From: Diadema antillarum
Lineage: Eukaryota
Direction: 5' to 3'
Assembly (NCBI RefSeq): GCF_040938485.1
Contig: NW_027271496.1
Location: forward strand, 868,001-932,000
DNA: 64,000 nt
Positions 1-58,652 of the stretch are shown here, in pieces. Position 1 is the stretch's first letter. Every line of letters starts with the position of its first letter. Both the position numbers and the translations under genes were made by a program. The notes under the pieces are model-generated. The model made no database searches. It saw nothing but the letters and a program-made list of their open reading frames with translations, and was not told the DNA's origin.

Positions 1-2989
1 CTCCTGGTCGAAGTCGAGCGCGACGTAGCAAAGCTTCTCCTTGATATCGCGAACGATTTCTCTCTCGGCTGTAGCATTCGAGACAAAATTGATATTAAAG
101 AGGCATTAACGAGGTTGCGATTTTAATTTACGACAGAGAGACGCACTTGCTTTATCGTTCAAGATAAAAAAAAAATGTTTAGACTTTATCCGAGTATTTT
201 ATCGTTGCTCCTAGGAAGTTTACAACTTTAAGCCCTGGATGTAATGAATGTTGGCAAACATTCATATTGCTGTTGCATAAGATAATCTGTTGAAATTTGT
301 GTAGATACAGACGATTAATATTTCAATCGCATAGCAAAAGTTGTAAAAAGAATGTATTCATTCCAGAGGAAGGATCTGAGATGAAGATTGAAATCAGTGG
401 TTGAAAAAAAGGTTGATTGTGACAACAATGGCATCATTATATTAACACAAAGCGTCCTTACCCGAAGTGGTGAACGAGTGGCCCCGCTCTGTGAGAATGG
501 TGATGAGGTAATCGGTGAGATCCCGACCCGCCAGGTTCAGCCGAGTGATGGCGTGGGGCAGCGAGTACCCTTCGTAGATGGGAATGGTGTGCGAGACGCC
601 ATCACCGGCATCGAAGACAATCCCTGTTGTCCTCCCCGAGGCGTAGAGGGACATGACAGCCTGGATGGCAACGTACATGGCGGGGGTGTTGAACGTTTCG
701 AACATGATTTGCGTCATCTTCTCCCTGTTCGCCCTCGGATTCAACGGAGCTTCGGTTAGGAGTATAGGGTGTTCTTCGGGGGCGACGCGGAGCTCGTTGT
801 AGAACGTGTGATGCCAGATCTTCTCCATGTCGTCCCAGTTGGTGACGATGCCGTGTTCGATCGGGTATTTGAGGCTGAGAACACCCCTCTTGCTCTGGGC
901 TTCGTCTCCAACGTAGCTGTCTTTAGACCCCATACCCGCCATCATTATCTTTGATAAGAAAACACATCACAACAAAGAATTTTAGTTATCTTATTTTCTC
1001 CAAGCGTTAGGCCTATAACATCGTGTGAATTAAGGCGATATTGCATCTAACATTATCATGAAGAAAACCCAATTAAATTTCATTTTCCTATTCCCTTACC
1101 CCTATCTTCCTTCATTCCCCTCATTATTTGTATTTTCTTTTGAATCTTTCTCTTGTGCGGGACATTGTCACTTTAATGATATATTTTTTTTTTGTAGAAA
1201 TACTTTGTTCGATATACATGGCTATATCGTCAACATTGTTGACGATATTTATATTCACTATCATAATCATTAGTGCCTTCTTTGATGAAAAAAAAAAAAT
1301 GTTTATGAAATCATCATTACCATTCGAAAGAAAAGAAAAATGGCGCGCATTGTGAACCAGACTATTTTCAGCGTCAAGCAGCATTGTCATAGGATGGTAG
1401 ACACATTGGATATCCACAGATCATACTAGAGTAAAACCTTGCACGAGGTCCCATATTCTCTGATTTCTCTCAAATAAGCGCGATTATTCATAATGATATG
1501 GCCTTTAAAGAAAGGGAAGCAAATCAAAACTGAACGTTAACCTATAGAACGTTTAGATAATCGTGGATGAAACATAATTGCATTTTTGCCAGGTATTTGC
1601 AAATCTGTAAAGAAAGGTCACTCAGACATCCAATTGGGGCTTTTGTCCAGAGTATGTGGCGGCCATTTTATAGAGTCTGAGCAAATCTAGTCAGACACAA
1701 CTATGAAAACTATGATACAGATAATACATTGTATAAATTTGACATGGTGAACATTCACACTATTGACACTGAATTATTATAAGACCTTTGCAGTATGCAT
1801 GGATATCTTTTCTATGATCGTAGGTCCTAAAGGACAAGTCCACCTTCATATACATAAGGATTGAGAGAATGCAGCAATATTAGTAGAACACATCAGTGAA
1901 AGTTTGAGGAAAATTGGACAATCCATTCAAAAGTTATTTATATTTTTTAGTATCTGCGCAGTCACTGCTGGAAGAGAAGACTACTACAGTGTATGATGTC
2001 ACATGCGTACAACTATATAAGGAAAATAAAAAGAGAATTTCACAAAACTTTACTTTTTGAATAAAGTGCACATTTCTTCGACTTGCTACTGACGTATGTT
2101 AAGGGTAATATTATGCCCCCTGCCTTCTGAAAGAGAGAAGTCGAGAGTTCTTTTGCTATGCGAGAAAAATGGAAATATGTTGAATTTTCTTTATTCTTTC
2201 TTTATATCGTTGTACTCATGTGACATCACAAGCTATAGTAGTCTTTTCATCCAGCCGTGACTGAACAGAAACTCAAGAAATTCATAACTTTTTAACGGAT
2301 TGTCCGATTTTGCTCAAACTCTCACTGATGTGTTCTACTAATTTATTGCTGCATTCACTCAACCCACATGTCTATGAAGGTGAACTTGTCCTTAAGTATC
2401 TTATTTACTTTTGGATAAGATATAGTGAATTGATTGCATTCACCACTGTTCACGTATATATAGCGTTTGAGTGTATATAGTTTTTGCCAGAACGTTTATT
2501 GATAATCATTATAAAATGTGGCTTTGAAGTGTTTCTGTCCTAAGACTACAATCAGATTATCACATTGCTAACAAAATCAGTAGGTGCTTGTGCATGCAAT
2601 CATAACAATTTCGTGGCTGTTGAAAGTGCCCGACAGAAGCCATGTGCCCTATAAATTCGTAAAAGCACTTTTGAGCGTCATTTGCACAGCCCTATAGACT
2701 TCACTCGACCTTGTTACAGCAGAACAGTGACTGTTTTACACAGATGGCAACAACGATAAAAATTAAACTATAAACGAGTCAATTTATTTTCGATATCACA
2801 CCTCATATTATGCTTTGCGAATTAAACAAGCCCAGCAGATTTTGGTCTGCATACCTGATGCCTCGGTCTGCCGACGATAGAAGGGAAGACAGCTCGTGGC
2901 GCATCGTCCCCTGCGAAGCCAGCTTTACACATCCCGGATCCGTTGTCCATGACCAGGGGACTGATATCATCATCGCCATACTCAGACAT
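1..2989 (-). CDS. Act: Actin-1 (divergent actin, 3' part beyond window). Coding exons 2989-2855, 948-462, 68-<1
   Basis: Exon 1 [45 protein letters not shown] ends CAG|GTATGC. Exon 2 starts after tcaa[24 protein letters not shown]...[17 protein letters not shown]. Exon 3 starts after ctac[25 protein letters not shown]. Phases 0 and 1 are compatible. Confidence 0.95.
1831..2392. mobile_element. MITE family A (562 bp, AGGAC...GTCCT ends; Kolobok/T2-like), in actin-1 intron 1
   Basis: TIR AGGACAAGTCCACCTTCATA / TATGAAGGTGAACTTGTCCT plus long imperfect subterminal inverted repeats; near-identical to 21847-22408. Flanks here are degenerate (CTAA/TAAG). Confidence 0.8.
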
Positions 2990-3861
2990 CTTTGCGGGTT
3001 TTAATGTCAGCTCTTTCAAGGAGAATCGAACCATAATGATAAAGAAATAAAATAAAGTATTCCGCATGTAATGTCTCCTTATTGCTCGCAGTGTGAGTAT
3101 GGCCTACACAAAACTGTCACACCTTAGACGTCACAAAGTCACACCATCCTAGTCGCTAAATCATTACTTTTTTTACGTGGTAAATCATTCATTTCATTTA
3201 ATGCTAATTTATCCTTATACGTGACCTCATTCATCATTGTCTTTTAATCCAACTGGCACAATGAAATCAGTTATTCAATATATTCCATAACCAAGTCTTT
3301 TTCTGATGTACAATTTTGTATAATGTGTGCATTTTTTTTATACATTTGCATTCGCAGATTGTTCAGCTAAACTGCTTGTATTTATCATCCTTGACGTGAT
3401 CTGATTTGATTTGAATTATTGACTTCTGCATTATCGTTGTATTTGCACTATAATAGTACAGTCATGTATGATTTGTACACACATTGTTGGTATAATACTG
3501 ACGATCATCAATGTTCAATGCAACCATGTCAACATCATTGTATATAATTCTTATAATCCCGTTCGTATTTTATAGTATGAGTTTAGAACTATTCATGCAG
3601 TACAGGCCTACTCTAGAGCAACCACAATTCTTACACTCCTGCCCCCCCCCCCACCCCCAGAATGTGGTAATTTTTCGCTTCTGTTTTTGCTAAAACTGGA
3701 AGTTTCGGTGGATACACCATTTTGACATCTAACACTTTGTAGAACTTTACTAACAATAACGGGACCTCCTACCAGTTTTACGCCACAATCACGGCACTTA
3801 TACCTTAGATAATTCTGTATGCCTCAAGCAAGAATGTGAAATAGAAGGGAGTTAGACTTAC

Positions 3862-58500: not shown

Positions 58501-58652
58501 AACTATGATTGTCTTACCTGGTGCCTCGGTCTACCGACAATGGAAGGGAAGACAGCCCGTGGCGCGTCGTCCCCTGCGAAGCCAGCTTTGCACATCCCGG
58601 ATCCGTTGTCGATGACCAGGGGAGCGATATCATCACCAACAAAGTCGGCCAT
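55533..58652 (-). CDS. Act: Actin-3 (divergent actin, 379 aa). Exons 58652-58518, 58036-57797, 56623-56377, 56050-55533
   Basis: Exon sum 1140 nt, open frame, canonical GT-AG at codons 41/42, 121/122, 203/204; ends IVHRKCF. Confidence 0.95.
56978..57611. mobile_element. Tc1/mariner-like palindromic MITE (634 bp) in actin-3 intron 2
   Basis: TA flanks, long inverted arms (CAGTATGTCCCCAAAAAAGCGGAACGG / CCGTTCCGCTTTTTTGGGACACCCGG), (TG)n centre; empty site visible in actin-2 intron 2 (about 49025-49050). Confidence 0.88.

What the first reader, a model, noticed from the sequence alone, without database searches (positions are those of the whole stretch)
1..58652. An NLR immune receptor sits inside a cluster of interface-remodelled actins: possible guard/decoy locus
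Seen: all three actins alter filament-contact surfaces. The D-loop GVMVGMGQK becomes [18 protein letters not shown] or [10 protein letters not shown] with an insertion, and the hydrophobic plug LGMES becomes LGQEL or LDQER. They keep K50, T148, R177 and (where in window) E270. The NLR lies head-to-head with actin-1 and tail-to-tail with actin-2. Known: K50/E270 are cross-linked by the Vibrio MARTX ACD, and R177 and T148 are ADP-ribosylated by bacterial toxins; guard/decoy NLR logic is established in plants. Inference: these could be immune-cell or decoy actins co-regulated with, or monitored by, the NLR. Simple coincidental insertion is equally possible.
Basis: partly seen in the sequence, partly recalled or inferred. 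Interest (0 to 1): 0.72.

Follow-up and report, generated by a model that had tools for sequence, protein, structure and literature searches.

The report
Immune receptor inside divergent actin array
In a long-spined sea urchin an intact NLR immune-receptor gene and its inverted twin sit at one end of an array of eleven unusual actin genes; three of these actins are strongly conserved and would likely act as specialised cytoskeletal isoforms, and the receptor is most likely an unrelated neighbour rather than a guard of decoy actins.

Summary
The three actins are the end of an 11-gene actin/actin-like array present on both haplotypes, and Act1 is flanked by two inverted NLR paralogs. The D-loop and plug changes (G42I, V45A, Q49S, M269Q) are rare among actins and modestly enriched in those loops. 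The guard/decoy reading gains little. The four toxin-target residues are kept by 97-99% of sampled actins, so retention is expected. Act1/3/4 are under strong purifying selection and each of Act1-4 has its own CArG-TATA promoter. The Act1 promoter lies 13.6 kb from the NLR start codon. NLR and actin duplications do not match in age (dS 0.2-0.3 versus 0.74). The nearest NLR sister gene has no actin neighbour. About 200 NACHT genes per haploid genome give many chances for adjacency, though per locus it is uncommon (about 1-3%). Act2 has a wrecked D-loop and relaxed selection, so it is either a decaying copy or the one plausible decoy. Synteny in relatives and tissue expression could not be tested.

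The parts
1..2989 (-). Act1, divergent actin (87% identical to the genome's cytoplasmic actin); coding exons 2989-2855, 948-462, 68 to beyond the edge; lacks the codon 121/122 intron
   Evidence: alleles differ by 6 synonymous and 0 non-synonymous changes
4092..4716 (-). Act1 promoter: TATA at about 4092-4098, proximal CArG box 4144-4153, distal CArG box 4707-4716
   Evidence: function as an SRF-type promoter is inferred from recalled knowledge
17719..17810 (+). NLR-A exon 1: 2A-like N-terminal signal peptide (D-I-E-x-N-P-G-P motif)
   Evidence: matches the N-terminus of RefSeq model XP_071487918.1; motif class described in PMC4981915
18312..18613 (+). NLR-A exon 2: helical, probably DEATH-type effector domain
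   Evidence: six helices in the AF2 model; no Pfam hit; fold search inconclusive
19233..20770 (+). NLR-A exon 3: NACHT NTPase with intact Walker A and following helical domains
   Evidence: Pfam PF05729, E 2e-21; fold matches NOD2, NLRP3, NLRC4
21174..41371 (+). NLR-A exons 4-16: one linker exon, eleven phase-0 LRR-type exons (two repeats each, one GC donor) and a short cap exon
   Evidence: weak Pfam LRR hit on 1 of 3 exons scanned
30241..37482 (-). LTR retrotransposon in an NLR-A intron: 945-bp LTRs 99.7% identical, 5-bp target duplication, integrase before RT; this haplotype only
43126..43449 (+). NLR-A last coding exon, acidic tail; ends 24 codons earlier than the other allele
47621..50246 (-). 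Act2, young copy of the Act3/4 type with a 5-residue D-loop insertion, R62W and many changes at invariant sites; open frame in both haplotypes
   Evidence: branch dN/dS 0.53
51499..51564 (-). Act2 CArG-TATA promoter, 90% identical to that of Act3
55533..58652 (-). Act3, divergent actin (90% identical to cytoplasmic actin), 99% identical to Act4, which begins 1.3 kb right of the window in inverted orientation
59203..59266 (-). Act3 CArG-TATA promoter

Best explanation
The window is the end of an old tandem array of eleven actin and actin-like genes beside two inverted NLR copies, and the NLRs are most likely unrelated neighbours rather than guards of these actins. Shown: Act1, Act3 and Act4 carry a shared, conserved re-tuning of the D-loop and hydrophobic plug, each behind its own CArG-TATA promoter. 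Act2 is a younger copy under relaxed selection, and seven further genes are only about 50% identical to actin, some broken. Inferred: Act1/3/4 likely work as a tissue- or stress-specific filament isoform with altered subunit and binding-protein contacts, switched on through SRF-type promoters. Act2 is likely decaying or non-polymerising. NLR-A is an ordinary echinoid 2A-signal / DEATH-like / NACHT / LRR receptor of a three-member dispersed subfamily, which likely came to lie here after the actin variant arose and was then duplicated in inverted orientation around Act1.
For: Toxin sites are near-universal: K50 175/180, T148 201/202, R177 188/193, E270 178/180; chance of keeping all four is 0.71-0.97 at conserved-site rates. 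Purifying selection: Act1 alleles 6 syn/0 nonsyn; Act3 vs Act4 dN/dS 0.007-0.044; Act1 vs Act3 dS 0.74, dN/dS 0.09. CArG+TATA upstream of 8 of 8 Act1-4 alleles, 0 of 14 alleles of the seven far-diverged genes, and none in 3 kb upstream of the NLR-A start codon. No unique upstream homology links the NLR and actin promoters. NLR-A/B dS 0.21-0.32 does not match Act1/Act3 dS 0.74, so no NLR-plus-actin unit was copied. The sister NLR-C (73%, dS 0.37-0.46) lies on a contig with no actin hit and has its own ortholog on a different D. setosum chromosome. 395 NACHT candidates in the diploid assembly. 0 of 5 regions around six other divergent actin-like genes hold a NACHT exon. Interface-biased divergence is also reported for Plasmodium actin (PMC6055528, passages).
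Against: Adjacency is uncommon by uniform chance: 1.3% for a 170-kb interval from 155 listed NACHT loci in 85 clusters, perhaps 3% with all 395 candidates. Both NLRs are intact on both haplotypes and NLR-A has a 92.5% ortholog in D. setosum. The NLR-A/B and Act2/3/4 duplications are of similar age (dS about 0.2). Act2 keeps an open frame, its promoter and all four toxin sites, and its dN/dS of 0.53 is still below neutral (p 0.02). One of the five control pairs of actin-like genes flanks a ZU5-DEATH gene. The direction of the NLR move is not established (NLR-C could have left), and dS clocks differ between genes. The NLR transcription start was not found.
Confidence: 0.68

Rival explanations
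1. Guard/decoy locus in the manner of tomato Pto/Prf: NLR-A/B bind an array actin, most plausibly the non-polymerising-looking Act2, and fire when a bacterial enzyme modifies it.
For: An NLR embedded in a cluster of target paralogs has a precedent (Prf in the Pto cluster; PMC4990186 and PMC5091034, passages). Act2 has lost filament-forming residues (G42, M44, G48, R62, 5-residue insertion) but keeps K50, T148, R177, E270, its frame and its promoter. Per-locus adjacency is about 1-3%. Duplication ages of NLR-A/B and Act2/3/4 are similar.
Against: Site retention is expected by chance. Act2 alleles differ by 11 non-synonymous changes, several at invariant sites, as in decay. NLR-C shares the same eleven LRR exons at 75-95% nucleotide identity but has no linked actin. 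LRR dN/dS is 0.2-0.4 with no excess on the first repeat strand. No actin domain is fused to the NLR. The G42-V43 bond cut by grimelysin/protealysin (PMC7311988, abstract) is changed, which fits evasion better than bait.
Confidence: 0.08
2. Defence-linked backup actins: Act1/3/4 are polymerising isoforms resistant to some actin poisons or proteases, induced when the cytoskeleton is attacked, and they share a regulatory neighbourhood with the NLRs without being sensed by them.
For: G42I and V43I/M alter a known bacterial protease site (PMC7311988, abstract). CArG boxes would allow induction on G-actin depletion (recalled SRF/MRTF mechanism). Toxin-resistant divergent actins are reported in Chlamydomonas and Chromodoris (PMC12444908, passages). 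Strong purifying selection fits a real job.
Against: Most toxin-target residues are unchanged. CArG boxes also lie upstream of 7 of 7 conventional-type actins elsewhere in the genome, so they are not specific. No shared promoter element with the NLRs was found.
Confidence: 0.17
3. The array is mainly a germ-line set of non-canonical actins/Arps, as in Drosophila and mammals, and Act1-4 belong to the same programme.
For: Seven array genes are about 50% identical to actin, 36-50% to each other (one pair 80%), lack CArG boxes and include broken alleles. Non-canonical Arps are mostly testis-expressed in flies and mammals (PMC8291977, passages).
Against: Act1-4 keep somatic-type CArG-TATA promoters and 84-90% identity. 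This reading is compatible with the best explanation and only differs in naming the tissue.
Confidence: 0.07

Closest known systems
Sea-urchin NLRs with N-terminal 2A-like signal (S. purpuratus SpNLR2A; PMC4981915)
   Same: 2A-like N-terminal peptide, effector domain, NACHT, LRRs; 85 of 241 S. purpuratus NLRs carry such a peptide (passages).
   Different: This subfamily (A, B, C) is 39% or less identical in the NACHT exon to other listed NLRs of the genome; recoding activity not tested.
Tomato Pto/Prf cluster (guard/decoy)
   Same: An NLR gene lies among paralogs of a protein family that pathogen enzymes target.
   Different: No binding, co-expression or conserved linkage shown here; different kingdom and NLR class; the conserved actins look functional, not inert.
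Non-canonical actins/Arps (Drosophila Arp53D, mammalian testis Arps, Chlamydomonas NAP1)
   Same: Lineage-restricted actin paralogs with changed interfaces kept beside conventional actins.
   Different: Here eleven lie in one tandem array spanning 50-90% identity; Act1/3/4 share a specific G42I/V45A/Q49S/M269Q signature; tissue unknown.
Echinoid cytoskeletal actins (CyI/CyII/CyIII type; names recalled)
   Same: Act1-4 group next to the genome's conventional actins in the tree, keep nucleotide-site residues, H73 and CArG promoters.
   Different: Conventional copies elsewhere in this genome keep the standard D-loop and plug; Act1-4 do not and have an intron at codon 41/42.

Membership tests
Animal NLR (NACHT-LRR) | NACHT NTPase with intact Walker A | tested here: met
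   PF05729 above cut-off; fold matches NOD2, NLRP3, NLRC4 at E below 1e-18
Animal NLR (NACHT-LRR) | C-terminal leucine-rich repeats | tested here: met
   eleven phase-0 repeat exons with LxxLxL pattern; strand-helix repeats in the AF2 model; Pfam support weak
Animal NLR (NACHT-LRR) | N-terminal DEATH-fold effector domain | tested here: inconclusive
   six helices; the same profile positions match a Pfam-confirmed Death exon; no direct Pfam hit; isolated model pLDDT 66, best Z 5.3
SpNLR2A-type NLR | N-terminal D(V/I)ExNPGP 2A-like peptide | tested here: met
   present in NLR-A and NLR-B on both haplotypes; NLR-C has T for I/V
Conventional cytoplasmic actin (Act1/3/4) | Nucleotide and catalytic residues D11, Q137, D154, H161 and H73 | tested here: met
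Conventional cytoplasmic actin (Act1/3/4) | Canonical D-loop and hydrophobic plug | tested here: not met
   G42I 2/178, V45A 3/179, Q49S 0/180, M269Q 0/178 in sampled public actins
Conventional cytoplasmic actin (Act1/3/4) | Polymerises into filaments | not testable with these tools
   needs protein
Guard/decoy pair (Pto/Prf type) | NLR gene embedded among target paralogs | tested here: met
Guard/decoy pair (Pto/Prf type) | Decoy has lost the target's working function | tested here: inconclusive
   not suggested for Act1/3/4 (strong purifying selection); possible for Act2
Guard/decoy pair (Pto/Prf type) | NLR and decoy duplicated or retained together | tested here: not met
   dS mismatch for the flanking pairs; NLR-C without actin; 0 of 5 other actin-like regions with NACHT
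Guard/decoy pair (Pto/Prf type) | Linkage conserved in related species | not testable with these tools
   no relative genome is held; the D. setosum NLR-A ortholog was found but the place of its actins was not
Guard/decoy pair (Pto/Prf type) | Co-expression and physical binding; activation on modification | not testable with these tools
   no usable RNA holder; full spliced proteins could not be given to the complex tool
Integrated-decoy NLR | Target domain fused into the NLR | tested here: not met
   17-exon model holds no actin sequence; genes are on opposite strands

The most novel reading that the evidence does not exclude
This is an animal counterpart of Pto/Prf: a pair of 2A-signal NLRs kept inside an actin array guard an actin decoy (Act2, filament-dead but toxin-site-intact), while Act1/3/4 serve as protease-evading backup actins, giving sea urchins a genetically linked sensor for cytoskeleton-attacking pathogens.
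Probability: 0.08. Interest if true: 0.82.

Novelty: new variant of a known kind. Interest (0 to 1): 0.34.

Why it matters
As it stands, the locus gives a conserved actin subfamily with D-loop and plug residues almost never seen in sampled actins, plus a graded array from 90% to 50% identity. That is a natural experiment on filament interfaces and of moderate interest to cytoskeleton specialists. I found no description of it in five literature searches, but the library lacks most subscription papers, including the classic sea-urchin cytoskeleton survey. If the guard/decoy reading were true it would give a ligand to an echinoderm NLR, for which none was found in these searches, and show a plant-style linked decoy in an animal that suffers disease-driven mass mortality.

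Tried and rejected
Homolog search with the Act1 D-loop exon returned only multi-copy or fused ordinary actins in its 120 listed rows, so orthologs of the variant in other urchins were not reached; absence there means nothing. The NACHT search among longer proteins found none at 1e-80. Sequencing-run search: no RNA holder listed; two small-share runs. The first laying of reads did not complete. The second, on the Act1 to NLR-B interval of the other haplotype, was dominated by repeats and no contig bridged the two genes. In it one contig of run X1 (RNA only by guess, 87.5% alike) starts and stops at the splice sites of NLR exon 1, a weak hint that some family member is spliced; not used as evidence. 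Inferring synteny from RefSeq accession order was rejected, because NLR-A and NLR-B carry consecutive numbers although Act1 lies between them. The RefSeq models of both NLRs are truncated (790 and 646 aa against about 1500), which may reflect little spliced-read support; too weak to use. Search for a shared upstream non-coding exon among NLR-A/B/C found only repeats. Fold search of the isolated effector exon was inconclusive, and pairwise comparison with a Death-bearing NLR gave nothing. One filament-structure paper was not held, so enrichment was tested only on D-loop 39-51 and plug 263-273 as defined in PMC7828245. No complex prediction was run: only exon pieces or truncated models were available and adjacency alone does not justify it. 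Assembly artefact rejected: gene order and models agree on both haplotypes. Earlier-findings look-ups gave nothing relevant. The supplement of PMC13511894 was listed but not read.
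Full report
Setting. The window is G000:C608:868001-932000; contig C129 carries the same region in reverse at about 95% identity and behaves as the other haplotype. Two RefSeq proteins of Diadema antillarum match the C129 NLR translations over 644 of 646 and 789 of 790 residues, so the organism is a long-spined sea urchin.

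Observation. The NLR is a 17-exon gene of 1506 aa: a 2A-like signal exon (class described in PMC4981915, passages), a helical effector exon, a NACHT exon (PF05729; fold like NOD2, NLRP3 and NLRC4), eleven LRR-type exons and an acidic tail. It is open on both haplotypes; a recent LTR retrotransposon sits in one intron of this haplotype only.

The wider locus. The order on C608 is NLR-B (minus), Act1 (minus), NLR-A (plus), Act2 (minus), Act3 (minus), Act4 (plus), then seven actin-like genes about 50% identical to actin, over 130 kb. C129 has the same order. One far-diverged gene has a stop on one haplotype and another is broken on both, as expected of a birth-and-death array. Conventional actins with the standard D-loop lie on other contigs, and exons of the variant type were found only on C608 and C129 among 66 of 66 candidates scored.

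Are the interface changes real? Against 229 actin copies of at least 80% identity taken from 120 public proteins (a biased set of multi-copy models), G42I occurs in 2 of 178, V45A in 3 of 179, Q49S in 0 of 180 and M269Q in 0 of 178. Changes relative to five conventional paralogs fall in the 24 D-loop and plug positions more often than expected: Act1 8 of 39, Act3 6 of 26, Act2 10 of 51 (p 0.007-0.026 after weighting by site variability), against 6 of 54 (p 0.48) for another divergent actin of the genome. The loops were chosen after seeing the data, so this is modest. Interface-biased divergence is also reported for Plasmodium actin (PMC6055528, passages).

Do they look like decoys? The toxin sites are correctly cited (PMC7828245, passages), but they are kept in 97-99% of sampled actins, and the chance of keeping all four is 0.71-0.97 at conserved-site rates, 0.52-0.70 at overall rates. 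Act1 alleles differ by 6 synonymous and no amino-acid changes; Act3 and Act4 by 36-40 synonymous and 1-6 amino-acid changes; Act1 and Act3 share 15 changed positions across dS 0.74. The signature was fixed long ago and has been held since. Act2 differs: a 5-residue D-loop insertion, R62W and 33-39 residues rare in public actins, branch dN/dS 0.53 (below 1, p 0.02), and 11 amino-acid differences between alleles. That R62 changes block polymerisation is recalled. Act2 is thus either decaying or the single plausible decoy. One known protease site, G42-V43 (PMC7311988, abstract), is altered in all four, which fits evasion rather than bait.

Is the linkage meaningful? Each of Act1-4 has a CArG box 45-55 bases before a TATA box (8 of 8 alleles), against 0 of 14 alleles of the far-diverged genes and 6 of 174 background windows, which include these promoters; 7 of 7 conventional-type actins also have a CArG box. 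The Act1 promoter is at 4092-4153, 13.6 kb from the NLR-A start codon; the NLR start site is unknown and no unique upstream homology was found. NLR-A and NLR-B diverged at dS 0.21-0.32, whereas the actins next to them (Act1 against the Act2/3/4 type) diverged at 0.74, so they were not copied as units. Their sister NLR-C (dS 0.37-0.46, same exon set, open frame over 16 exons) lies on a contig without any actin hit. D. setosum has orthologs of NLR-A (92.5%) and NLR-C (88.4%) on chromosomes of different length; where its variant actins lie could not be found. LRR dN/dS is 0.2-0.4. None of five regions (600 kb) around six other divergent actin-like genes holds a NACHT exon, although one pair flanks a ZU5-DEATH gene. 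Regions around the conventional actins were read for 10 kb only; none of their contigs has a listed NACHT.

Against this reading: from 155 listed NACHT loci in 85 clusters (93 of 282 and 102 of 395 candidates scored), a 170-kb interval would hold one by uniform chance only 1.3% of the time, perhaps 3% with all candidates. Both NLRs are intact, and the NLR-A/B and Act2/3/4 duplications are of similar age. Every NLR cluster has some neighbour, and a reader scanning many windows will meet such pairs, but the adjacency is not trivial.

Comparison. The NLR is a member of the echinoid NACHT-LRR family with a 2A-like signal. The arrangement resembles Prf embedded in the Pto cluster (PMC4990186 and PMC5091034, passages) but fails the co-retention test that could be run and lacks data on binding and expression. 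The actins are a new variant among divergent actins, comparable to NAP1 and Chromodoris actins (PMC12444908, passages) and, for the 50% genes, to testis-biased non-canonical Arps (PMC8291977, passages). PMC12363784 (passages) was read for interface definitions; PMC13511894 (passages) has no occurrence of 'actin' in its main text, and its supplement was not read.

Verdict. Real and not found described in the searches run, but most likely a specialised actin array with an NLR pair as neighbour (0.68). Guard/decoy is not excluded (0.08). Interest 0.34.

Noticed in passing
G000:C608:939899-996595 (L040-L046) and C129:154678-223917: Seven actin-like genes about 50% identical to actin, sharing three intron positions, without CArG boxes; one has a nonsense allele, one is broken on both haplotypes.
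   Followed up: partly
G000:C608:825000-852705 (L035-L038): NLR-B, an intact inverted paralog of NLR-A; its alleles are unusually divergent in exons 3-4 and partly closer to NLR-A, suggesting gene conversion.
   Followed up: partly
window 30241-37482: Recent haplotype-specific LTR retrotransposon with a SCAN-like domain and integrase placed before reverse transcriptase (Gmr1-like order; name recalled), single 1490-aa frame.
   Followed up: partly
window 14849-17176: Perfect 1165-bp tandem duplication upstream of NLR-A, single in the other haplotype; recent duplication or assembly artefact.
   Followed up: no
window 27803-27997: LRR exon with a GC splice donor conserved in NLR-A, NLR-B and NLR-C.
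   Followed up: yes
window 30003-30182 and 38575-38760: Two LRR exons of NLR-A differ by 9-12% between haplotypes, against 1-3% for most other exons.
   Followed up: partly
L139:2289-9597 (G000:C529): A ZU5 plus Death-domain gene lies between two divergent actin-like genes on another contig.
   Followed up: partly
L092:7787-9727: 647-codon single open frame beyond NLR-B with a hydrophobic N-terminal stretch and no Pfam match; near-duplicated on C608.
   Followed up: partly
L074 (G000:C25:2362105-2364185): Conventional actin allele with apparent frameshifts in two exons; the partner contig C386 gives an uninterrupted match for the exon tested.
   Followed up: no
P0093-P0119: Many mollusc actins of about 534 aa carry a long extension beyond the actin fold.
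   Followed up: no
window 48450-48514: Partial duplicate of the end of Act2 exon 3 inside the following intron, on both haplotypes.
   Followed up: no
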